A DNA stretch of 64,000 nucleotides from a virus. Shown piece by piece: positions 2,288 through 9,510 of this stretch. A program made the translations under genes and the position numbers. The stretch covers positions 1-64,000 of the IMG/VR virus record IMGVR_UViG_3300044837_000097; one strand, 5' to 3'. The notes beneath the pieces were generated by a model. It searched no databases and had not been told where the DNA came from. It saw nothing but the letters and a program-made list of their open reading frames with translations. The first letter of the stretch is position 1. The number at the start of each line of letters is the position of its first letter.

Positions 2288-2316
2288 TTGACAAAGCACG
2301 GGCGCTGGTGTACCAT
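2288..2316 (+). promoter_or_regulatory. sigma70 promoter at start of tRNA array
   Basis: TTGACA-17nt-TACCAT. Confidence 0.75.
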
Positions 2317-2335
2317 TGTTTCAAGTTTGCACTAC

Positions 2336-2410
2336 GGTGTCGATGGTGTAGCGGCAGCACATGAGATTGTGAATCTCATAGTATGGGTTCGACCCCCATT
2401 CTTCACCCCA
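2336..2410 (+). tRNA. tRNA-His(GTG)
   Basis: G-1, C73, CCA; anticodon arm TGAGA-TTGTGAA-TCTCA; two acceptor-stem mismatches. Confidence 0.85.
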
Positions 2411-2420
2411 AAAATAGTGC

Positions 2421-2449
2421 TTGACAAACGCAGAAAGTTCTGATACACT
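2421..2449 (+). promoter_or_regulatory. sigma70 promoter
   Basis: TTGACA-17nt-TACACT. Confidence 0.8.
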
Positions 2450-2491
2450 GGTTTTAGAGTCAAGAAATTATTGACTAAGAAAGAAGGACAA

Positions 2492-2719
2492 ATGAAGATA
2501 GCCACGCTTCTTGCTGCTTTACTGATTGGTGGATTTGTTTTCGCGCAAACGCCAGCACAAGGCGACCACATAGTTCGTCCGTACGTAAAGAGAAACGGCA
2601 CTATCGTTGCTCCCCACTATCAGACGAACCCAAACAAAACTCAGCGGGATAACTACAGCGCGACGGGCCGATACAACCCCCACACGGGACAATCAGGAAC
2701 TAAACACCCGAAGCGTTAA
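2492..2719 (+). CDS. small exported protein (YxKxNGTxVxPHY..NP..G..GT type)
   Basis: Sec signal peptide, GAAGGA RBS. Confidence 0.75.
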   Translation: MKIATLLAALLIGGFVFAQTPAQGDHIVRPYVKRNGTIVAPHYQTNPNKTQRDNYSATGRYNPHTGQSGTKHPKR

Positions 2720-2729
2720 AAGTTTCAAT

Positions 2730-2803
2730 CAGGAATTCTGATAGTGGTAGTCTACGGGCGTCGGAAGCCTGAGGTGGTCGTTCGATTCGACCATTCCTGA
2801 CCA
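2730..2803 (+). tRNA. tRNA-Pro(CGG)
   Basis: C1-G72, A73, CCA; loop GTCGGAA. Confidence 0.85.
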
Positions 2804-2906
2804 GTTTCATGCATCAAGGCATTGAGACTATTAAAGAAGAAATTTCTAAATGTGGTGTTGTTTGTTCGAACTGTCATAGAATTCGAACATTCAATCGCAC
2901 AGGAAT

Positions 2907-2994
2907 CGGGGCGTAGGCGGGTAAATGGAAGCCCTCCGCTTTTGGAAAGCGGTGCCTACGGGCCTTGGGTGTTCGAGTTACCCCGTCCCGACCA
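2907..2994 (+). tRNA. tRNA-Pro(TGG) with long variable arm
   Basis: C1-G72, A73; CCGCT-TTTGGAA-AGCGG; extra arm GCC-TACG-GGC. Confidence 0.75.
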
Positions 2995-3003
2995 AGTTTC
3001 AGC

Positions 3004-3078
3004 GGAGATAGGGTCAGTTGGTAACGACATGCCCCTGTCACGGGTAAAGTGCGGGTTCGATTCCCGCTATCTCCGCCA
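3004..3078 (+). tRNA. tRNA-Asp(GTC)
   Basis: cloverleaf, loop CTGTCAC, G73, CCA. Confidence 0.9.
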
Positions 3079-3087
3079 AGTTTCAGT

Positions 3088-3162
3088 TCCAATCTGGTCT
3101 AATGGTAGGACACCTCACTGTTAATGAGGAGGGTCCACGTTCGAGTCGTGGGGTTGGAGCCA
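3088..3162 (+). tRNA. tRNA-Asn(GTT)
   Basis: CCTCA-CTGTTAA-TGAGG, G73, CCA. Confidence 0.9.
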
Positions 3163-3166
3163 ATTT

Positions 3167-3522
3167 TTGTGGAGCCGTTAGGTTAATCCACAGACGATAC
3201 CCGCAGGGGTGCTCGTTTCAGTTCAGGCCCCTCGGGGCTGTTCGTACTGACGAGCGCCTTTGAGGGAGCTAACGGTGATAACGAGGCGTCTAAAGCACGC
3301 CTACCACAAAGTAGCACACGCCGAAATAACGCGAAAGCGTCGAACATATCGGGCGGCTACTATAATGTTGTCGCGACAGTAACCGAAACGGGCGTCGTCA
3401 TGAAGCGACCCGGTCTCCTCATGAGTGGTGGCGGGCTTGACCTGCAAAGGGACACAAGGTTACGGCGGGGTGAAACCCGCCCAAAGCGCCTCGGCGGGGC
3501 GCGTTGATAAATGCCGCCCGGA
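3167..3522 (+). ncRNA. large structured ncRNA of unknown family
   Basis: no credible ORF; many stems, GNRA-type loops, potential pseudoknot CCGTTAG/CTAACGG. Confidence 0.55.
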
Positions 3523-3533
3523 TTTGTTTCAAT

Positions 3534-3619
3534 CCGCTGGTGATGTAATAGCAGCCATGAATGCCTTAGAAGCATTTGGTCGAAAGACCGTGAAGGTGCA
3601 ACTCCTTCTCAGCGGACCA
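3534..3619 (+). tRNA. tRNA-Leu(TAG)
   Basis: AATGC-CTTAGAA-GCATT, long variable arm, CCA. Confidence 0.9.
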
Positions 3620-3640
3620 TTTTTGTACGTACATTAAGAA

Positions 3641-3675
3641 GGGGGAGCCGTGAACTCCCCCGACTCTTTCAGACA
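3641..3675 (+). promoter_or_regulatory. degenerate copy of the endonuclease-leader pseudoknot, no downstream ORF
   Basis: GGGGGAG-CCGTGAA-CTCCCCC followed by CTTTCAGAC (pairing partner broken). Confidence 0.6.
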
Positions 3676-3687
3676 TCTAGTTTCAGT

Positions 3688-3766
3688 GGTCGCGTCGGGA
3701 AAACGGGATATCCCAATGGCGTTCTAACCCATACAAAAGTAGGTTCGAATCCTACCGCGACTACCA
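3688..3766 (+). tRNA. tRNA-Arg(TCT)
   Basis: loop GTTCTAA with C:C mismatch closing; canonical T arm; CCA. Confidence 0.75.
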
Positions 3767-3772
3767 TTTTGT

Positions 3773-3847
3773 GGGCTGCTCGTATATCGTATAATGCACA
3801 GCGCTACGAACGCTGGGAGCGGGGTTAGACTCCCCGGTGGCCCTCCA
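3773..3847 (+). tRNA. tRNA-Arg(ACG)
   Basis: CAGCG-CTACGAA-CGCTG, CCA. Confidence 0.88.
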
Positions 3848-3856
3848 AGTTTAATT

Positions 3857-3943
3857 CGCCTGCTGGTGGAATTGGCAGACACGCCGGATTCAAAACCCGG
3901 TGCCCGAGAGGGCGTTAGAGTTCGAATCTCTAGTTGGCGACCA
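3857..3943 (+). tRNA. tRNA-Leu(CAA)
   Basis: loop TTCAAAA, long variable arm, CCA. Confidence 0.9.
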
Positions 3944-3975
3944 TTTTGAAATCCATTGACTACGGTCAGGTGATT

Positions 3976-4395
3976 ATGAACAGCAACCAAAGAAAAGATG
4001 CAACGCTAGGAATGCCTCACGGCACCGCGAGTGGCAGACTTCGGAAGATGATTTTGTTCAATCTTTTGAAAAAGCACGGCGAGAATTCCTGCCATGCTTG
4101 CGGAAAGCCGATTGATTCTGTAGATGCTTTGAGTATTGAGCACAAGAAACCGTGGGAAGGGGTATCGGCTGACTTGTTTTGGGATTTAGAAAACATAGCG
4201 TTTTCGCATCTTCGATGTAATACTCCGAACCGCCCTTACAACAATGGTGGGTGGAACAAGAAACCAGCCCCAGAAGGGATGGCGTGGTGCATCGGACATC
4301 AAGTATTCGAACCAGTCGAAAACTTTTGGAAGAACGCAAGTTTTTGGAATGGTCTTGAGAAGTACTGCAAGACGACCAAGATTCGAAATAGATAA
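3976..4395 (+). CDS. HNH homing endonuclease
   Basis: CHACG..LSIEHKKPW..NIAFSHLRCN. Confidence 0.85.
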   Translation: MNSNQRKDATLGMPHGTASGRLRKMILFNLLKKHGENSCHACGKPIDSVDALSIEHKKPWEGVSADLFWDLENIAFSHLRCNTPNRPYNNGGWNKKPAPEGMAWCIGHQVFEPVENFWKNASFWNGLEKYCKTTKIRNR

Positions 4396-4402
4396 AGATT
4401 TT

Positions 4403-4486
4403 GCGCGTGTGGCGGAAAGGCATACGCAGGGGACTTAAAACCCCCGACCGAAAGGTATGAGGGTCCGACTCCCTCGACGCGCACCA
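4403..4486 (+). tRNA. tRNA-Leu(TAA)
   Basis: loop CTTAAAA, long variable arm, CCA. Confidence 0.9.
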
Positions 4487-4491
4487 AGTTT

Positions 4492-4580
4492 GAGCACTGG
4501 CGGTTCGCCGCGTACTTCAAGACGCGAAGTGCGAATCGTCGGAAAACCTACCTCTCATTGAAGACGAGATTGGATGCTCA
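4492..4580 (+). ncRNA. multi-stem structured RNA, unknown
   Basis: closing stem TGAGCA/TGCTCA enclosing GCGG-TTCG-CCGC and two more stems. Confidence 0.45.
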
Positions 4581-4590
4581 ATTAGTTTAA

Positions 4591-4668
4591 CCCGGATGAT
4601 GCCGAAGTTCACGAGGCGTTCGCCTGCAAAGCGAATTGAAGCAGGTTGGAGTCCTGTCACTGGGTCCA
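4591..4668 (+). tRNA. tRNA-Cys(GCA)
   Basis: TTCGC-CTGCAAA-GCGAA, U73, CCA; bulged acceptor stem. Confidence 0.8.
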
Positions 4669-4759
4669 CTCATGTCGGATACCCGCGCTTGAACAGCGAG
4701 GGAGTAAGGTCCGAATCGTTTAAACGTGCTATGGTAACGAAAACCGGGGCACACATTTT

Positions 4760-5013
4760 TGGTAGCGTAGACTAACGCAGGCCGCAAGGCTTGAGGAAGT
4801 TCCTGCCACATCTCAACATCGAACCGTGGAAGTTGCGGGACGCGTAAGCGTACAAGTAAGCCTTCGTACTGAGCAATCAGTCATTGGAGCGAAGTAACTC
4901 TTTTCGGGTGCAAGTTCAAATAGGACCTGAGTGCTTGTTGAGCATGACGAAGGTCGGGTTGAATGCTTAGACGAATGTTAGTCCACGACAGAAGCAGGGC
5001 TACAGCGCCACCA
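4760..5013 (+). ncRNA. rnpB: RNase P RNA (compact, bacterial type-A-like)
   Basis: P1 TGGTAGCGT/GCGCCACCA; P2 GACTAAC/GTTAGTC; P3 hairpin; CR-I GAGGAAGTTCCTGC; CR-V ACAGAAGCAGGGCTA (P4 pairing); P6 CTCAACA/TGTTGAG; P15/P16 with GGT loop; AGACGAATG before P2 3' strand. Confidence 0.88.
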
Positions 5014-5051
5014 AATAAAAATTTTGATTGCTGGTTTAGCGGCCAGTAATC

Positions 5052-5100
5052 GGGTGGGCGTCCCTAGAAGACGCCCTCCCAACTCTTTCTAGGAGAGCAC
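5052..5100 (+). promoter_or_regulatory. RBS-occluding pseudoknot
   Basis: GGGCGTC-CCTAGAA-GACGCCC; loop complementary to TTCTAGG overlapping SD. Confidence 0.75.
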
Positions 5101-5503
5101 ATGGTTTGTACCAAATGCCGGACGGATAAATCTGTTGATGATTTTTACGATAGACATAAGACTGATAGCAACGTAGGTCGTAAGAAGTCCATTTGTAAAC
5201 TATGTCAACACAAACGAAACAGGGCATCAAACGCTGGCCGTCGTCGTGAACACAGAGATAGATTAGTTGTGATTAAGACAGAGCGCGGTTGTGCGGATTG
5301 TGGTTTTAGAGGATTGTGCCCCGGCGCTGCACTTTCATCACAGAAAACCAGAAGAGAAGAAGTTTGTTATCGCCCATTGTTTGCTGTATTCGTGGGAAAC
5401 GATTTTAGAAGAAGTAGAAAAGTGTGACGTGGTTTGTTCTATTTGTCATACTAAACGACATCAGTGCGCTGCGATTTCGAGCGGCAGAATACCTCCCTCT
5501 TAA
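5101..5503 (+). pseudogene. HNH endonuclease split by +1 frameshift near 5305
   Basis: frame 1 ends its homology at GCADCGF; frame +1 continues EDCAPALHFHH..EVEKCDVVCSICH; paralog of 8505..8855. Confidence 0.8.
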
Positions 5504-5542
5504 GGAGGCTTGGTCTCAGTTCAAGTCTGAGGCGGCGCACCA
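5466..5542 (+). tRNA. tRNA-Lys(CTT)
   Basis: CCTCC-CTCTTAA-GGAGG, CCA. Confidence 0.88.
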
Positions 5543-5549
5543 ATTTTCT

Positions 5550-5626
5550 GAGTCGCGGACGCGAGCGGCAGCGTACTCGCCTTTTAAGCGATGGATGTCC
5601 GAGTTCGAGCCTCGGGCGACTCACCA
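5550..5626 (+). tRNA. tRNA-Lys(TTT)
   Basis: loop CTTTTAA, acceptor GAGTCGC/GCGACTC, CCA. Confidence 0.88.
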
Positions 5627-5741
5627 ATTTTCGAAAGAGACGTGCGCCGCGCACGAGAGCGAAATAATGCGGCGGCGGGCGAATGACGCCCTCAGTCTAC
5701 CAAGACGTTACGAAGAGGTGGAATGCCTCAAAATTTTCTGT

Positions 5742-5817
5742 ACCCGATTATCAAACTGGTCGTATGAACCTCTCCTACAAAGAGGCTGGCAGAGTTCGAT
5801 TCTCTGATTGGGTACCA
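5742..5817 (+). tRNA. tRNA-Val(TAC)
   Basis: CCTCT-CCTACAA-AGAGG, CCA. Confidence 0.85.
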
Positions 5818-5824
5818 ATTTCTG

Positions 5825-5913
5825 TGGGGACGCAGTTCGCGGTAGAGTGAACGCTTGCGATATCCGGTACCGGACTCGTAAGATGGCGAGGGTGAATGAC
5901 CCTTGGGTTCCCA
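5825..5913 (+). ncRNA. cloverleaf tRNA-like RNA without anticodon loop or CCA
   Basis: four fully paired arms; anticodon-position arm capped by palindrome TCCGGTACCGGA. Confidence 0.55.
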
Positions 5914-5919
5914 GATTTT

Positions 5920-6010
5920 TGTCGGTAGCATCAGTATGCAGCGCGGTTTTATAAACCGCGAAGCTCCAGATGAGAGCGCCGAGAGTGGGCAGCACACTCA
6001 CCGACAACCA
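5920..6010 (+). tRNA. atypical tRNA, TAT anticodon (Ile-UAU-like)
   Basis: acceptor TGTCGGT/ACCGACA + ACCA; 4-nt D loop; 6-bp anticodon stem; long variable arm; T loop GGCAGCA. Confidence 0.7.
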
Positions 6011-6012
6011 GT

Positions 6013-6087
6013 GGCCCCGTCATCTAGTGGCGAGGATGCCAGCTTCTCAAGCTGGTCACACGAGTTCGACTCTCGTCGAGGCTACCA
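6013..6087 (+). tRNA. tRNA-Glu(CTC)
   Basis: CCAGC-TTCTCAA-GCTGG, CCA. Confidence 0.9.
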
Positions 6088-6126
6088 AGTTTGAAAATGT
6101 AAGAGGAGCAGTTTTAAGATACTCTC

Positions 6127-6417
6127 ATGGCAAACAACTATAACTCGAATCCGATTTTCATCGACAGCATAATGGCTGCAACCGCGAAGAATAGCGGCGC
6201 GACAACGACCAACCCGTTTCGTATTAAAGAAATTGTGTGGAGTACACCCGGAAGCACCGCAGCAGATTCCGCCGTAATTCAAGACGGCTTGGGTAATGAA
6301 ATTTTCGAACAACAATCAGGTCGAGCAGCACCTGAACTGTTTAATCCGCCAATGGTTATAAATGACTTCAAAGTAACAACTTTGGCAGATGGGCACATTC
6401 TGATTTATTTGGTGTAA
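6127..6417 (+). CDS. hypothetical protein, possibly virion beta-rich protein
   Basis: clean 96-aa ORF between tRNAs. Confidence 0.7.
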   Translation: MANNYNSNPIFIDSIMAATAKNSGATTTNPFRIKEIVWSTPGSTAADSAVIQDGLGNEIFEQQSGRAAPELFNPPMVINDFKVTTLADGHILIYLV

Positions 6418-6451
6418 AGCGCACCGTTATCCGCGCTCTTAGTTTTTCAGT

Positions 6452-6525
6452 GCCGTTATCTGCTATGGGTAGGCAACGAGGCTTTCAACTTCGTAGACAG
6501 GGTTCGAGTCCCTGTAGCGGTACCA
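6452..6525 (+). tRNA. tRNA-Glu(TTC)
   Basis: CGAGG-CTTTCAA-CTTCG, CCA. Confidence 0.88.
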
Positions 6526-6626
6526 ATTTTCGAAACGCGCCCATTCGTAGAGTGGGCTATCCCGGTCACTGCCGGGCGCTACGACGATAGCGTGAGTCGG
6601 TCAATACGACATCGCAAAGTTTCAGT

Positions 6627-6700
6627 GGGGTGCGAGTAGGACGGGAATACGGTTGCCTTGCCCGCATCAAGACGGGGTTCGACTCCCCGGCGCTCCACCA
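6627..6700 (+). tRNA. tRNA-Ala(TGC)
   Basis: G3:U70, A73, CCA; loop CTTGCCC. Confidence 0.8.
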
Positions 6701-6755
6701 AATTATAGGAGAGTGATATGACAGTTATACATTAGGTAACTCGGGAGGGTTATTT

Positions 6756-7118
6756 ATGTCTAAGTCATATCGCAAGCCTTGGGGTACGTATGTTGCTGTA
6801 AAGAGCAGCGCACATGCCGATAAGACGTTCGCCGCTCGCGCAATGCGTAGAGCGCAGAATCAGTCCTTGAGAGAAGCAATTCGTGACGACGACTGGGAAG
6901 GCTGGTTGATTCCCGAACGCTACGAGTGCAGAGACAACGATGTGTGGGGTTGGGGCCGAGACGGCAAGCAGCGTCCGATGTACCCGAGCAATCAGTATAA
7001 CAACCCATACGCATACGTATCCAGTCCGACGTGGATGGATGAAGAACAAATCTTCGCACGCTGGGAAGAACGCAAGAGCCACAACGATGATTTTATGGCC
7101 GATGCTTCTCGTAAATAG
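6756..7118 (+). CDS. hypothetical protein
   Basis: GGAGG RBS; MSKSYRKP..DK..A.R..RR. Confidence 0.75.
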   Translation: MSKSYRKPWGTYVAVKSSAHADKTFAARAMRRAQNQSLREAIRDDDWEGWLIPERYECRDNDVWGWGRDGKQRPMYPSNQYNNPYAYVSSPTWMDEEQIFARWEERKSHNDDFMADASRK

Positions 7119-7126
7119 TTTTCTGT

Positions 7127-7200
7127 TCCTCGCTCGTCCAATGGCAGGACGCATGCTTGATAGGCGTGTTATCGTGGTTCGAGTCCACGGTGAGGAACCA
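7127..7200 (+). tRNA. tRNA-Ile(GAT)
   Basis: loop TTGATAG, CCA. Confidence 0.88.
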
Positions 7201-7284
7201 AGTTCGAACAGACACGGGACCCGCTGTACACGGGTTGTCTGCTTCGGTGAGGAACTCCTGATAGGGCACCGATAAATTTTCTGT

Positions 7285-7361
7285 TGCGGGGTAGAGTTCT
7301 GGTGAACTCCGGTGTCTCATAAGCACACGCAGGCTGGGTTCGATTCCCGCTTCCGCAACCA
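7285..7361 (+). tRNA. tRNA-Met(CAT), initiator-like acceptor stem
   Basis: loop CTCATAA; TGCGGGG..CCGCAACCA; lacks the three G-C anticodon-stem pairs. Confidence 0.8.
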
Positions 7362-7370
7362 ATTTTCTGA

Positions 7371-7444
7371 GCGGGTGTGGTGTAATGGCAGCACCTCATC
7401 CTTCCAAGTTGAGTGTACGGGTCCGAGTCCCGTCGCCCGCTCCA
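7371..7444 (+). tRNA. tRNA-Gly(TCC)
   Basis: loop CTTCCAA, U73, CCA. Confidence 0.88.
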
Positions 7445-7452
7445 AGTTTTGA

Positions 7453-7526
7453 GCCTTGATGGTCTAGTGGTAGAACAGTTCCTTGGTAAGGAACAGGTCG
7501 TGGTTCGATTCCACGTCATGGCTCCA
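7453..7526 (+). tRNA. tRNA-Thr(GGT)
   Basis: GTTCC-TTGGTAA-GGAAC, CCA. Confidence 0.9.
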
Positions 7527-7534
7527 AGTTTTGA

Positions 7535-7608
7535 GCACGGTTAGTTTAGTGGCAGAACTGCCGCCTTGTAAGCGGTTGGCGTGTGTTCGATTCACACCCT
7601 GTGCTCCA
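7535..7608 (+). tRNA. tRNA-Thr(TGT)
   Basis: loop CTTGTAA, CCA. Confidence 0.9.
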
Positions 7609-7616
7609 AGTTCTGA

Positions 7617-7690
7617 GCGATGTTGGTGTAGTGGCAGCACGAGACCTTGCCAAGGTCTAGGTATCGTTTCGATTACGATACGTCGCTCCA
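7617..7690 (+). tRNA. tRNA-Gly(GCC)
   Basis: AGACC-TTGCCAA-GGTCT, U73, CCA. Confidence 0.9.
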
Positions 7691-7705
7691 ATTTTAAGAG
7701 GGACT

Positions 7706-8038
7706 ATGACCGACAACATGAGTGGCTCATCTCAGTTCGCTTTGTTTGCTTTAATCGGCGTCGGAGTTTTGGCCTGCTTAGGCGATGCGTACACAACTTT
7801 AAAGGGCTTCGATGTCGGTTTGGTAGAAGGCAATCCTGTTGCTCGTTGGCTTCAAAAGAAATTGGGATTTTCCTTATCGGCTTTTGTTGCAACTGGATTT
7901 TTTCTTGTATCCACTTCGATAATTTCCGTAGTTAGTCCGACTGCCGCGTTTGCAATAGCAGGTGGAGTCATTGCTCTGGAGACGTTCAATACAGTTCGAA
8001 ACTACTTGTTGTTCAAAAAGTACAGTAAGAAAAAGTAA
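7706..8038 (+). CDS. DUF5658-like membrane protein
   Basis: hydrophobic helices with DxxTT..G..EGNP motif. Confidence 0.7.
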   Translation: MTDNMSGSSQFALFALIGVGVLACLGDAYTTLKGFDVGLVEGNPVARWLQKKLGFSLSAFVATGFFLVSTSIISVVSPTAAFAIAGGVIALETFNTVRNYLLFKKYSKKK

Positions 8039-8062
8039 AGATTGTCAATCCACCAGTTTTGA

Positions 8063-8136
8063 GCACGGTTAGTCCAGTGGCAAGACGCTCCCCTCGTAAG
8101 GCAGAAGCGTTGGTTCGATTCCAGCACTGTGCTCCA
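8063..8136 (+). tRNA. tRNA-Thr(CGT)
   Basis: loop CTCGTAA, CCA. Confidence 0.82.
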
Positions 8137-8144
8137 GTTTCTAC

Positions 8145-8218
8145 TCGCCTTTAGCTCAGTGGTAGAGCGTCCGGCTGTTAACCGGGTGATGTTGGTTCGA
8201 TTCCAGCAGGGTGAGCCA
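8145..8218 (+). tRNA. tRNA-Asn(GTT), second copy
   Basis: canonical D and T arms, loop CTGTTAA, G73. Confidence 0.92.
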
Positions 8219-8223
8219 AGTTT

Positions 8224-8352
8224 CTGTTGTGACGCCGAACGGCAAGGCGCATCTAACATGAGGTAGATTCGAAGGCGGCTTAGTCCGTACGTGCTGACTT
8301 AGACAGCATTCGTCCATCGAGTCTACGTGTGGGTTCGAATCCCATCAACTGA
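8224..8352 (+). ncRNA. tRNA-like RNA with ~60-nt branched insertion, no CCA
   Basis: D arm CGCC-GAACGGCAA-GGCG; T arm GTGGG-TTCGAAT-CCCAT; insert closed by GTAGATTCGA/TCGAGTCTAC. Confidence 0.55.
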
Positions 8353-8362
8353 AAGTTTCAGC

Positions 8363-8438
8363 GAGTCGAAAGTGTTAGTGGCAGCATGTCGGTCTCCAAA
8401 ACCGTACGGTGGGGGTTCAAGTCCCTCTCTTCTCGCCA
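8363..8438 (+). tRNA. tRNA-Trp(CCA)
   Basis: loop CTCCAAA, G73, CCA. Confidence 0.82.
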
Positions 8439-8461
8439 ATTTTTGTACGTACAATTAGAAA

Positions 8462-8504
8462 GAGGGGAGCCGCGAACTCCCCTCAATCCTTTCGCGGGGG
8501 ATTT
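8462..8504 (+). promoter_or_regulatory. RBS-occluding pseudoknot
   Basis: GAGGGGAG-CCGCGAA-CTCCCCTC; loop complementary to TTCGCGG overlapping SD. Confidence 0.75.
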
Positions 8505-8855
8505 ATGAAGTGCGAATATCACGTTTGTAATAAAGAAGCAGGCACAAAAAGATATTGTTCTCGACCATGTAATACAAAACACCGTATTCACAAGGCAAGA
8601 AAAATTCAAAAACAGAAAGCCGTTGAATATCTCGGCGGTAAGTGCTCTCAGTGTGGATACAGCCGATGCATCGAGGCACTTCATTTTCACCACTTGAGAG
8701 ACAAACTTTTTGAAATCGGTAAGATGATTGGCTATCGTCAGGCGTGGTTAAAAATTCAAGCAGAACTAGATAAGTGTGTTTTACTTTGCGCCAACTGCCA
8801 TCATGAGTTTCATTACGGAGGGTTGACAGAACCCGGCATTGTGTCCGCTTGCTAA
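8505..8855 (+). CDS. HNH endonuclease
   Basis: GGKCSQCGY..ALHFHH..ELDKCVLLCANCHHEFH. Confidence 0.88.
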   Translation: MKCEYHVCNKEAGTKRYCSRPCNTKHRIHKARKIQKQKAVEYLGGKCSQCGYSRCIEALHFHHLRDKLFEIGKMIGYRQAWLKIQAELDKCVLLCANCHHEFHYGGLTEPGIVSAC

Positions 8856-8906
8856 GCGGCAGCCACCCGAGAGGGTGTGTAGGTTCAAATCCTACACCTT
8901 CCGCCA
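8817..8906 (+). tRNA. tRNA-Ser(GCT)
   Basis: loop TTGCTAA, long variable arm, G73. Confidence 0.9.
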
Positions 8907-8913
8907 ATTTTAC

Positions 8914-9000
8914 GGATGATTGGGCTTCATGGGGAGCAGCAGTCTTGAAAACTGTCCCGACTGAAAGGTCGAGAGGGTTCGATTCCTTCATCATCCGCCA
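8914..9000 (+). tRNA. tRNA-Ser(TGA)
   Basis: loop CTTGAAA, long variable arm, G73. Confidence 0.88.
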
Positions 9001-9005
9001 TTTAT

Positions 9006-9090
9006 GGAAGACAGTGCGAATGGCTCGCAACGGGTTTCGAACACCCGACCAGCCGCAAGGCTGACAGCTCAATTCTGTTCTCTTCCCCCA
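9006..9090 (+). tRNA. tRNA-Ser(CGA), atypical
   Basis: CGGGT-TTCGAAC-ACCCG, long variable arm; T loop CTCAATT, C73. Confidence 0.65.
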
Positions 9091-9091
9091 T

Positions 9092-9166
9092 CCCGTGCTA
9101 GTGTTAGCGGTAGCACCCCGGCTTGAAACCCCGGTAGGTAAGGTTCGAATCCTTAGAGCGGGACCA
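9092..9166 (+). tRNA. tRNA-Phe(GAA)
   Basis: loop TTGAAAC, CCA; acceptor mismatches. Confidence 0.75.
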
Positions 9167-9175
9167 AGTTTCTGT

Positions 9176-9255
9176 GCCTCGGTAGCTCAGAGCGATAAGA
9201 GCAATCGGTTTTTAACCGATAGGTCGTCCGCGCTGCGTCGGATTCGAGGCTTCCA
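9176..9255 (+). tRNA. tRNA-Lys(TTT)-like with aberrant T arm
   Basis: good D and anticodon arms (ATCGG-TTTTTAA-CCGAT); T loop lacks TTC. Confidence 0.55.
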
Positions 9256-9264
9256 ATTTTCTGT

Positions 9265-9338
9265 TGAGATGTCGTTTAATGGTAGGACAAGCGGCTTTGA
9301 CCCGCTGAATAAAGGTTCGAATCCTTTCGCCTCAACCA
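9265..9338 (+). tRNA. tRNA-Gln(TTG)
   Basis: U1-A72, loop CTTTGAC, CCA. Confidence 0.88.
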
Positions 9339-9436
9339 ATCTCGCGTCGTCGGTCAGGTACTTTGAGAGCGCGGCTAGACGCAATCTCGGAGGAAAAGGA
9401 CCCCATCGCCCTAGTGGGGACGGCGTTTATTTCTGT

Positions 9437-9510
9437 TCGGATGTCTTTCAACGGTAGGAAGCGCGGCTCTGAACCGCGTAATGCACGTTCGAGTCGTGCC
9501 GCCCGAACCA
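9437..9510 (+). tRNA. tRNA-Gln(CTG)
   Basis: U1-A72, CGCGG-CTCTGAA-CCGCG, CCA. Confidence 0.88.

What the first reader, a model, noticed from the sequence alone, without database searches (positions are those of the whole stretch)
3167..3522. ~355-nt unassigned highly structured RNA between tRNA-Asn and tRNA-Leu
Seen: hairpin TGTGGA/TCCACA whose loop CCGTTAG is complementary to CTAACGG ~95 nt downstream. Also seen are the long stem GGGTGCTCGT/ACGAGCGCCT, CGC-GAAA-GCG and GGCGG..CCGCC hairpins, long-range pairs GTAACC/GGTTAC and CGGGCGGC/GCCGCCCG, and two TCATGA elements able to pair. No credible ORF; no tmRNA or group I signatures that I can see. Established: large ornate ncRNAs (GOLLD, ROOL) occur beside phage tRNA clusters. 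Inference: one large or two adjacent structured RNAs, possibly a new class.
Basis: partly seen in the sequence, partly recalled or inferred. Interest (0 to 1): 0.7.

Follow-up and report, generated by a model that had tools for sequence, protein, structure and literature searches.

The report
New self-pairing phage tRNA-array RNA
The gap between two tRNA genes of this uncultured phage encodes a folded RNA that matches no catalogued family. One of its loops stays self-complementary while its letters change, so two copies probably clip together; what the RNA does is unknown.

Summary
Window 3167-3525 (+ strand) matches no Rfam family even at E<=10, is not called as tmRNA, has no Pfam-matching ORF, and matches no GenBank phage.

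It has two modules.

**3' module (3367-3525).** This is a new RNA family with 11 distinct sequences, all from related ~100-kb phages. It always sits in the same slot of the tRNA array, upstream of a tRNA-Leu.
- The fold is a three-way junction, a hairpin and an H-type pseudoknot.
- 23 of 34 pairs show compensatory changes and 96.8% of cells are paired, against 29-52% when the partners are slid.
- The first six bases of one loop form a palindrome in all 11 sequences, using six different words. The 5' tail carries an 8-10-nt palindrome in 10 of 11.
- This is the signature used to argue for intermolecular kissing loops in OLE and GOLLD, so I infer a homodimer or larger assembly.

**5' module (3167-3311).** It occurs in only 3 of the 11. 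The CCGTTAG:CTAACGG pairing covaries. It also carries a 25-nt hairpin (3280-3305) found in more than 120 viral contigs, always co-oriented with nearby tRNAs.

Function and expression are untested. This scan has noted other self-pairing small RNAs in phage tRNA arrays on other DNA; those are different sequences.

The parts
3163..3167 (+). Spacer after tRNA-Asn (ATTTT of ATTTTTGT). The same kind of U-rich spacer precedes tRNAs of this array.
   Evidence: The spacer is identical in G004 and near-identical in L113.
3168..3192 (+). 5' domain, first element. Model A: hairpin GUGGA/UCCAC with a 13-nt loop holding CCGUUAG (3175-3181). Model B: UGUGG (3169-3173) pairs with CCACA (3304-3308) and closes the domain.
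   Evidence: 95% identical over the first 41 nt in G004. RNAalifold on 3 sequences prefers model B. Neither stem varies, so the two models are undecided.
3205..3261 (+). Long variable hairpin of the 5' domain (12-bp stem, tip CAGGCCCC-UCGG-GGGCUG).
   Evidence: G004 and L113 have a long hairpin of different sequence at the same place.
3269..3275 (+). CUAACGG, the partner of CCGUUAG (3175-3181).
   Evidence: L113 has CCGUUCG with CGAACGG, a change on both sides that keeps the pair (columns 14/114, AU in 2 and CG in 1).
3280..3305 (+). 25-26-nt hairpin module AACG-AGGCGU-loop-ACGCCU-ACC, a module shared with many unrelated phage RNAs.
   Evidence: - 30 of 30 copies with a tRNA within 300 nt lie on the tRNA's strand.
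- The A-U pair switches to G-C in L258 and L259.
- No Rfam family overlaps it.
3311..3364 (+). Variable insert (GUAGC...GCUAC enclosing small hairpins, including CGC-GAAA-GCG). It links the two domains.
   Evidence: About 90 nt of different sequence in G004, about 5 nt in L113.
3369..3378 (+). 5' tail palindrome UGUCGCGACA (10 nt) of the 3' core.
   Evidence: - GUUGCAAC in 8 members, GUCGCGAC in the window and L113, absent in L071.
- The two versions differ at mirror positions.
- Self-duplex energy -16.5 kcal/mol.
3379..3463 (+). Three-way junction.
- P2: 3379-3384 with 3458-3463.
- P2a: 3389-3392 with 3409-3412. Its loop holds UCAUGA at 3398-3403.
- P2b: 3413-3417 with 3449-3453.
   Evidence: all 7 P2 pairs show compensatory change; P2b column 2 shows CG, GC, AU and UA. 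One search gives the hand-set helices. A U-G pair in P2b is kept in 9 of 9 counted sequences, which marks the + strand as the folded one.
3418..3425 (+). Self-complementary word at the start of the P2b loop (CUCAUGAG, core UCAUGA), followed by UGGU. Proposed symmetric kissing site.
   Evidence: Same position in all 11 members, with six different palindromes: GUCGAC x4, GCUAGC x3, UCAUGA, GCAUGC, CCCGGG, GUGCAC.
3464..3481 (+). P3 hairpin (GGCGGG / CCCGCC, loop GUGAAA).
   Evidence: The sequence differs in nearly every member. 5 of 6 pairs show compensatory change. P3 is absent in L071.
3486..3525 (+). H-type pseudoknot.
- S1: 3486-3490 with 3498-3502.
- S2: 3493-3497 with 3514-3518.
- A-rich loop 3: GUUGAUAAAUG, 3503-3513.
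- Tail: CGGAUUU, 3519-3525.
   Evidence: S1 and S2 are 100% paired; S2 has 3 pairs and S1 has 2 pairs with compensatory change. Loop 3 and the tail are nearly invariant.
3526..3533 (+). Spacer GUUUCAAU before tRNA-Leu(UAG), which starts at 3534. The likely 3' boundary is set by RNase P cleavage of the tRNA (inferred).

Best explanation
Window 3167-3525 (+ strand) encodes a non-coding, highly structured RNA.

**How it is made (inferred).** It is transcribed as part of the phage's tRNA array. Its ends are probably cut by the enzymes that trim the flanking tRNAs: 3' trimming of the upstream tRNA and RNase P cleavage at tRNA-Leu.

**The core (shown by comparison).** The constant part is the roughly 145-160-nt 3' domain (3367-3525). 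It is a new RNA family that folds into a three-way junction (P2, P2a, P2b), a hairpin (P3) and an H-type pseudoknot with an invariant A-rich loop.

**How it probably acts (inferred).** Two parts of this core are self-complementary: the first 6-8 bases of the P2b loop and a 10-nt 5' tail. I infer that copies of the RNA pair with each other through these sites. The result would be a symmetric homodimer or a larger ring or chain. This would work like the kissing-loop bridges of OLE, GOLLD and ROOL, which are also phage RNAs found beside tRNA islands.

**The 5' domain.** In the window the core carries an optional 5' domain (3167-3311). Its conserved 25-nt hairpin is a module reused by many other phage RNAs next to tRNAs. 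It is most likely a docking site for a common partner.

**Status of each step.** Fold, family and palindrome covariation are shown. Processing, self-association and trans action are inferred. The cellular job is unknown. My guess is a tRNA- or translation-linked scaffold or decoy.
For: **Family**
- A covariance model built from 5 relatives, without the window, finds window 3367-3525 at 73.5 bits, E 6e-19. The next best hit in the 64-kb window scores 13.8 bits.
- Further members score as follows:

| Member | Bits |
|---|---|
| L076 | 134.1 |
| L081 | 129.9 |
| L276 | 119.7 |
| L113 | 95.6 |
| L071 | 37.7 |

**Structure**
- On the model-fitted alignment of 10 sequences, 96.8% of 313 cells pair, against 74.5 +/- 1.8 in shuffles.
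- 23 of 34 pairs have changes on both sides, and 0 of 500 shuffles reach any measure.
- Slid controls give 29-52% paired and a covariation score of 0.04-0.08, against 0.506.
- Hand-set helices on the same 10 sequences: 300 of 300 cells canonical.

**Strand**
- A U-G pair is kept in 9 of 9 counted sequences.
- The element has the same orientation as the tRNAs in every case.

**Self-pairing**
- The first six loop bases of P2b are a palindrome in 11 of 11 members, with six different words. A random hexamer is a palindrome 1 time in 64.
- No second copy of the word exists in the same RNA, except in the window.
- The 5' palindrome has two versions that differ at mirror positions.
- Passages of Kretsch et al. 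2025 (PMC12286853) use exactly this palindrome-to-palindrome covariation to support intermolecular kissing in OLE L9.3 and GOLLD L21a.

**Context**
- The next downstream tRNA is Leu(UAG) in 10 of 11 members and Leu(CAA) in 1.
- There is no promoter-like or + strand terminator-like site inside 3163-3533.

**Not a known family:**
Against: - There are no expression data at all. No RNA run holds the stretch, so transcript ends and stability are inferred.
- The family is small: 11 distinct sequences in roughly 6 lineages, all from one phage group.
- The alignment used was fitted to the structure by the model, which leans the counts towards it. The helices were set by hand.
- The number of 6-nt palindromes per sequence (2-4) is not above the shuffled expectation of about 2.3. 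The argument rests on position only.
- L071 lacks the 5' palindrome and P3, so these are not essential.
- The strict synteny with tRNA-Leu would also fit a cis role.
- Nothing indicates what the assembled RNA would do.
Confidence: 0.6

Rival explanations
1. It is a cis-acting part of the tRNA-array transcript, not a free RNA. It could be a structured leader or spacer that guides processing, protects the untranslated 7-kb transcript from Rho or nucleases, or controls read-through into tRNA-Leu(UAG).
For: - The slot is fixed upstream of a tRNA-Leu in 11 of 11 members.
- The pseudoknot's 3' strand is followed by a U-rich tail (CGGAUUU...).
- The shared 25-nt hairpin also sits in operon leaders: Vibrio phage 1.106.O upstream of its endolysin gene, and G009 near the left genome end.
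Against: - The distance to the tRNA varies from 4 to about 360 nt, with other elements in between.
- The U-run is too short for a terminator, and none was flagged.
- A cis leader does not explain a loop that is kept self-complementary in six different words.
Confidence: 0.2
2. It is an aptamer or sponge. The pseudoknot and junction would bind a small molecule or a host or phage protein, for example a defence signal or a tRNA-handling enzyme. The palindromes would be incidental.
For: Invariant unpaired stretches look like a binding pocket or contact surface: loop 3 GUUGAYAAAU, UGGU after the palindrome, CAAAG before S1. H-type pseudoknots with A-rich loops are common aptamer folds (general knowledge).
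Against: - No match to any Rfam riboswitch at E<=10.
- There is no gene downstream to regulate.
- The palindrome covariation is unexplained by this reading.
Confidence: 0.1
3. It is decayed or DNA-level sequence: remnants of tRNAs or homing-endonuclease genes, with palindromes that serve as protein-binding or restriction-type DNA sites.
For: HNH endonuclease genes and remnants are scattered through the array. The palindromes read like restriction sites.
Against: - Compensatory changes occur in 23 of 34 pairs.
- Strand-specific U-G pairs are kept.
- The palindromes keep an exact position inside an RNA loop while their sequence changes freely.
- No ORF matches Pfam.
Confidence: 0.05
4. It is a very divergent member of a known RNA family (tmRNA, GOLLD, ROOL, RNase P RNA, group I intron, Y RNA).
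For: The context is typical for these RNAs. A YrlA-like stretch (32.7 bits, gathering score 69) lies just downstream of the RNA in relative L113.
Against: - cmscan of 3100-3700 at E<=10 returns only the two flanking tRNAs.
- ARAGORN finds no tmRNA, standard or permuted.
- There is no T arm, no acceptor stem ending in CCA, and no interrupted host gene.
Confidence: 0.03

Closest known systems
GOLLD, ROOL and OLE RNAs (ornate RNAs that form RNA-only homo-oligomers; Kretsch et al. 2025, PMC12286853, passages read)
   Same: - They are phage-encoded and lie beside tRNA islands (GOLLD, ROOL).
- The fold is pseudoknotted and has several helices.
[quoted passage not shown]
- They have loops that switch between palindromes, read as symmetric intermolecular kissing.
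   Different: - No sequence or model match.
- The core is only about 145 nt, against 500-800 nt or more.
- The helix plan is different.
- Oligomerisation is inferred here, not observed.
Phage T4 rnaC and rnaD (species 1 and 2 small stable RNAs)
   Same: They are small RNAs of unknown function at the end of a phage tRNA cluster, next to tRNA-Arg (annotation). The passage read in PMC9697503 says 'RNAs of yet unknown functions'. That they are cut out with the tRNAs is recalled, not checked.
   Different: The core model finds nothing in the T4 region with filters off; the best hit is 3.8 bits and lies elsewhere. rnaC ends in a tRNA-like T arm, which this RNA lacks.
H-type pseudoknot aptamers (preQ1, SAM-II and similar; recalled)
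   Same: Two interleaved 5-bp stems with a long A-rich third loop.
   Different: No Rfam match at E<=10. There is no downstream ORF or expression platform. The pseudoknot is only one part of a larger RNA.
Uncatalogued ~120-nt RNA of Pseudomonas phage Psa21 and Vibrio phage 1.106.O ('group A' in this report)
   Same: - It shares the 25-nt hairpin module AACG-RGGCGN-loop-NCGCCY-A followed by a helix strand.
- In Psa21 it lies between tRNA-Pro and tRNA-Asn.
   Different: The rest of the fold differs: a four-way junction with the conserved words CAGAACUAAAACG and GGGUAAUCAG. The window's 3' core is absent from those records.

Membership tests
tmRNA | tRNA-like domain (acceptor stem ending in CCA, T arm) plus a tag reading frame | tested here: not met
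   ARAGORN reports 31 tRNAs and no tmRNA in the window. No tmRNA model hit at E<=10. No T-loop word in 3163-3533.
GOLLD / ROOL | Match to the Rfam covariance models | tested here: not met
   cmscan of all 4227 Rfam families over 3100-3700 at E<=10 returns only the flanking tRNAs.
GOLLD / ROOL | Encoded in phages beside tRNA islands | tested here: met
   The RNA lies inside a 31-tRNA array, and the slot is the same in all relatives.
GOLLD / ROOL / OLE | Homo-oligomer held by kissing loops | not testable with these tools
   Only the sequence signature is available: six palindromes at one loop position in 11 of 11 members. It needs native gels, SEC-MALS or cryo-EM.
Group I intron | Model match and an interrupted host gene with flanking exons | tested here: not met
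   No hit. Both flanking tRNAs are complete.
Bacterial RNase P RNA | Model match with the conserved core | tested here: not met
   No hit in 3100-3700 at E<=10.
YrlA (bacterial Y RNA) | Model match; a Ro60 (TROVE) gene in the genome | tested here: not met
   - No hit in the window stretch.
- No TROVE match in the 82.7-kb record, which is 81% complete.
- A sub-threshold YrlA-like stretch lies beside the RNA in L113 only, not in it.
T4 rnaC / rnaD | Sequence and structure similarity | tested here: not met
   The core model with filters off finds nothing at rnaC or rnaD.
New family defined here (3' core) | P2/P2a/P2b junction, pseudoknot S1/S2 with loop GUUGAYAAAU, and a palindrome followed by UGGU in the P2b loop | tested here: met
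   The window scores 73.5 bits against a model that did not contain it. All helices and the palindrome are present.

The most novel reading that the evidence does not exclude
The 145-nt core may be a minimal self-assembling RNA. It has two, perhaps three, independent self-complementary sites:
- the 10-nt 5' tail;
- the P2b loop;
- often the P2a loop.

With these, copies could build closed rings or chains rather than a simple dimer. That would be a miniature, RNA-only quaternary assembly of the ROOL/GOLLD kind, encoded in a fraction of their length.

The 25-nt hairpin of the 5' domain may be a universal docking module. Many unrelated phage RNAs near tRNA genes would use it to engage one conserved partner, such as tRNA, the ribosome or a tRNA-processing enzyme.
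Probability: 0.3. Interest if true: 0.85.

Novelty: new variant of a known kind. Interest (0 to 1): 0.66.

Why it matters
RNA-only homo-oligomers were only recently seen in nature, in very large RNAs whose function is still unknown.

A 145-nt RNA with the same evolutionary signature, a loop that stays palindromic in six different words, would be far easier to crystallise, image and mutate. It would also show that self-assembly is common among the small RNAs that phages keep in their tRNA arrays.

The 25-nt hairpin found in more than 120 viral contigs includes cultured phages: Pseudomonas phage Psa21 and Vibrio phage 1.106.O. It therefore gives an experimentally reachable handle on what these tRNA-island RNAs bind.

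Tried and rejected
**Known families.** Rfam at gathering threshold over the whole window gave 20 hits, all tRNA. Rfam at E<=10 over 3100-3700 gave 2 hits, both flanking tRNAs. ARAGORN found no tmRNA.

**Coding.** 6 ORFs of 40-71 aa in or across the stretch gave 0 Pfam hits at E<=1.

**Similar DNA in GenBank phages.** blastn of 3163-3533 found no match.

**Expression.** No RNA holder is listed. Four DNA runs hold small shares (0.05-0.20) of 2300-5100.

**Wider membership of the core**
- The relaxed viral pattern gave 6 extra loci, all chance (at most 12.7 bits).
- The genome-contig scan gave 20 loci, none credible (best 17.9 bits).
- L079 (20 bits, no tRNAs nearby) was dropped as spurious.
- Rows with sequences identical to others were counted once: L066, L078, L087, L092 and L217.

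**Other searches and ideas**
- The 5' domain pattern scan found only G004.
- tRNA-Leu proved too variable to use as a search anchor.
- Reading the 25-nt hairpin as a kink-turn, a sarcin-ricin-like loop, an RfaH ops site or a DnaA box was considered from memory and dropped. The flanks do not fit, and none of these was tested by a tool.
- Reading loop 3 (TTGAYA...) as a -35 box was dropped because no -10 follows in the relatives.
- Pairing of the 5' palindrome with loop 3 was dropped because G005 breaks it.
- The downstream-ORF survey of hairpin loci was too crude in GC-rich DNA and was not used.
- The paper on 8,495 candidate viral RNAs (PMC10690425; passages read) may list this RNA or the hairpin in its supplements, which I could not see.
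- Literature searches found no description of this RNA.

Full report
**Setting**

The window is the first 64 kb of an 82.7-kb IMG/VR virus record estimated at 81% complete. It carries 31 co-oriented tRNA genes at 2337-9510. The finding is the 371-nt gap between tRNA-Asn (3088-3162) and tRNA-Leu(UAG) (3534-3619).

**Observation**

The evidence that this is more than chance, and not a known or coding element, is as follows.
- The + strand folds better than its shuffles: -155.6 kcal/mol, z -3.89, 0 of 100 as good.
- The - strand does not stand out: z -1.86.
- Rfam gives only tRNAs at gathering score.
- At E<=10 over 3100-3700, Rfam gives only the two flanking tRNAs.
- ARAGORN calls no tmRNA.
- Six short ORFs have no Pfam match.
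- No GenBank phage has similar DNA.

**Relatives**

The terminase gave 26 related viral loci. A DNA search of 21 of their records found pieces of the gap in 8 at E<=1.

The gap is syntenic across relatives, but its length differs: 371 nt in the window, 475 in G004, 146 in G006, 198 in G005 and 603 in G017. Only the last ~145 nt is shared by all. The first ~150 nt is shared with G004 alone. So the stretch is modular.

**The 3' core**

I built a covariance model (R1) from five relatives, leaving the window out. It finds window 3367-3525 at 73.5 bits, E 6e-19. The next best hit in the window scores 13.8 bits.

Exact-pattern scans filtered with R1 gave these results.

| Collection | Scan calls | Credible new members |
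|---|---|---|
| Viral contigs | 21, 35, 100 | L043, L276 |
| Metagenome contigs | 37, 38 | L076, L081, L071 |
| 185,579 species genomes | 46, 47 | none |

L113 surfaced through the hairpin scan described below.

In all there are 11 distinct sequences, each occurring once per record. The next downstream tRNA is Leu(UAG) in 10 of them and Leu(CAA) in 1. More distant relatives with complete genomes lack the core: G009, G010, G012 and G015.

**Fold of the core**

| Element | Window coordinates |
|---|---|
| P2 (closes a three-way junction) | 3379-3384 / 3458-3463 |
| P2a | 3389-3392 / 3409-3412 |
| P2b | 3413-3417 / 3449-3453 |
| P3 | 3464-3469 / 3476-3481 |
| Pseudoknot S1 | 3486-3490 / 3498-3502 |
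| Pseudoknot S2 | 3493-3497 / 3514-3518 |
| Loop 3 (GUUGAUAAAUG) | 3503-3513 |

On the model-fitted alignment of 10 sequences:
- 96.8% of 313 cells pair, against a shuffled value of 74.5 +/- 1.8.
- 23 of 34 pairs carry changes on both sides.
- 0 of 500 shuffles reach any of the five measures.
- Sliding the partners by 1-3 columns drops pairing to 29-52%. It drops the covariation score from 0.506 to 0.04-0.08.

With helices set by hand, 300 of 300 cells are canonical.

There are three caveats. The alignment was fitted to the model. The helices were chosen by me. The 11 sequences fall into about six lineages.

A U-G pair in P2b is kept in 9 of 9 counted sequences. This fixes the + strand as the folded one.

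**Self-complementary sites**

The P2b loop reads [palindrome]-UGGU-W-W in every member. The palindrome starts right after the stem.

| Palindrome | Members |
|---|---|
| GUCGAC | 4 |
| GCUAGC | 3 |
| UCAUGA (CUCAUGAG in the window) | 1 |
| GCAUGC | 1 (L113) |
| CCCGGG | 1 (L071) |
| GUGCAC | 1 (L276) |

A random hexamer is a palindrome 1 time in 64, so five independent switches that stay palindromic are far beyond chance. This holds even though the number of palindromes per sequence is ordinary (2-4, against about 2.3 expected).

Adjacent bases of a loop cannot pair with each other. No second copy of the word exists in the same RNA, except in the window, whose P2a loop also carries UCAUGA. The simplest reading is therefore pairing between two molecules. 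Kretsch et al. 2025 use the same argument for OLE L9.3 and GOLLD L21a (passages read).

A second site is the 5' tail. It reads UGUUGCAACA, or UGUCGCGACA in the window and L113. The two versions differ at mirror positions. Their self-duplexes are worth -12.9 and -16.5 kcal/mol. This site is missing in L071.

**The 5' domain**

Window, G004 and L113 share a domain that starts right after the tRNA spacer.
- CCGUUAG (3175-3181) pairs with CUAACGG (3269-3275). L113 has CCGUUCG with CGAACGG, a compensatory change.
- Two topologies fit the data. The other, preferred by RNAalifold, is a nested fold in which UGUGG pairs with CCACA at 3304-3308. The stems do not vary, so this is undecided.
- In L113 the domain abuts the core with about 5 nt between them. 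In the window a 54-nt variable insert separates them, and in G004 a ~90-nt insert does.
- G006, a complete genome, has the core but no 5' domain and no hairpin module. The core therefore works without them.

**The 25-nt hairpin**

The hairpin at 3280-3305 (AACG-AGGCGU-loop-ACGCCU-ACC) turned up in G008 and G009 at another genomic place.
- There are 98 distinct contexts, 76 of them with a closing pair. Some in GC-rich coding DNA are chance matches.
- Of the 93 pattern hits with a closing pair (duplicate contexts included), 30 have a tRNA within 300 nt. All 30 lie on the tRNA's strand, none opposite.
- Rfam has nothing over it in the 20 loci searched at gathering score or the 8 searched at E<=1.
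- It is also part of another uncatalogued ~120-nt RNA, which I call 'group A'. Group A accounts for 22 of 43 distinct contexts fetched by an independent word.
- Group A is present, unannotated, in Pseudomonas phage Psa21 between tRNA-Pro and tRNA-Asn. It is also present in Vibrio phage 1.106.O upstream of the endolysin gene, where a terminator follows it.
- In L258 and L259 the A-U pair at the base of the stem becomes G-C.

I could not identify what binds this module.

**How it most likely works**

- **Shown:** a conserved, strand-specific, pseudoknotted fold; a fixed slot in the tRNA array; loop and tail words kept self-complementary.
- **Inferred:**
  - The RNA is co-transcribed with the tRNAs. 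Promoter-like sites lie at 2288-2316 and 2421-2449, and there is no promoter-like or + strand terminator-like site inside the gap. These counts are not above shuffles.
  - It is released by the enzymes that process the tRNAs.
  - It self-associates into a dimer or larger assembly.
  - It acts in trans.
- **Unknown:** the job itself.

**Comparison and novelty**

The RNA works like GOLLD, ROOL and OLE in context and in the kissing-loop signature, but it fails their model tests. It is not similar to T4 rnaC or rnaD.

I rate it a new family of a known kind. Other notes of this scan describe other self-pairing small RNAs in phage tRNA arrays on other DNA. By sequence look-up they are not this family, and I did not test them.

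Noticed in passing
window 3280-3305; loci L113-L231: A 25-nt hairpin (AACGAGGCG, 8-11 nt, CGCCTACC) occurs in more than 120 viral contigs of very different G+C content. It is often 4-100 nt from a tRNA gene and is always on the tRNA's strand (30 of 30). No Rfam family covers it.
   Followed up: partly
L232 1490-1600 (Psa21, MK552327.1 295248-295342); L233 1490-1590 (Vibrio phage 1.106.O); L146, L123, L138 and others: An uncatalogued ~120-nt four-way-junction RNA ('group A') with the conserved words CAGAACUAAAACG and GGGUAAUCAG. It contains the same hairpin, is unannotated in GenBank phages, and in the Vibrio phage is followed by an intrinsic terminator upstream of the lysis genes.
   Followed up: partly
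L113 995-1095 (-); similar pieces in the G004 and G017 gaps (L030, L033): A tRNA-like stretch with the T arm before the D arm matches Rfam YrlA (Y RNA-like) below threshold (32.7 bits against a gathering score of 69). It lies between the new RNA and tRNA-Leu. The window's own gap lacks it, and no TROVE gene is in the window's record.
   Followed up: partly
window 2809-2910: A short frame reads like the C-terminal end of an HNH endonuclease (a Cys pair followed by SNCHR). It lies between two tRNA-Pro calls and is probably a remnant of a homing-endonuclease gene.
   Followed up: no
window 3622-3632; L043 1485-1495: A 10-nt palindrome, TGTACGTACA, lies downstream of tRNA-Leu(UAG) and is kept in one other relative (G022). 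In the window a GGGGGAG...CTCCCCC hairpin follows it. It is possibly another small self-pairing element.
   Followed up: partly
L035 1300-1650 (G009, near the left end of a genome with terminal repeats): A long gene-free leader after promoter-like sites holds several hairpins, a repeated CCTATTTTGAGGAGTGACACA word, and the 25-nt hairpin.
   Followed up: no
L125 4030-4350: A 463-kb phage contig carries a full-scoring bacterial class A RNase P RNA (208 bits) inside its tRNA array.
   Followed up: no
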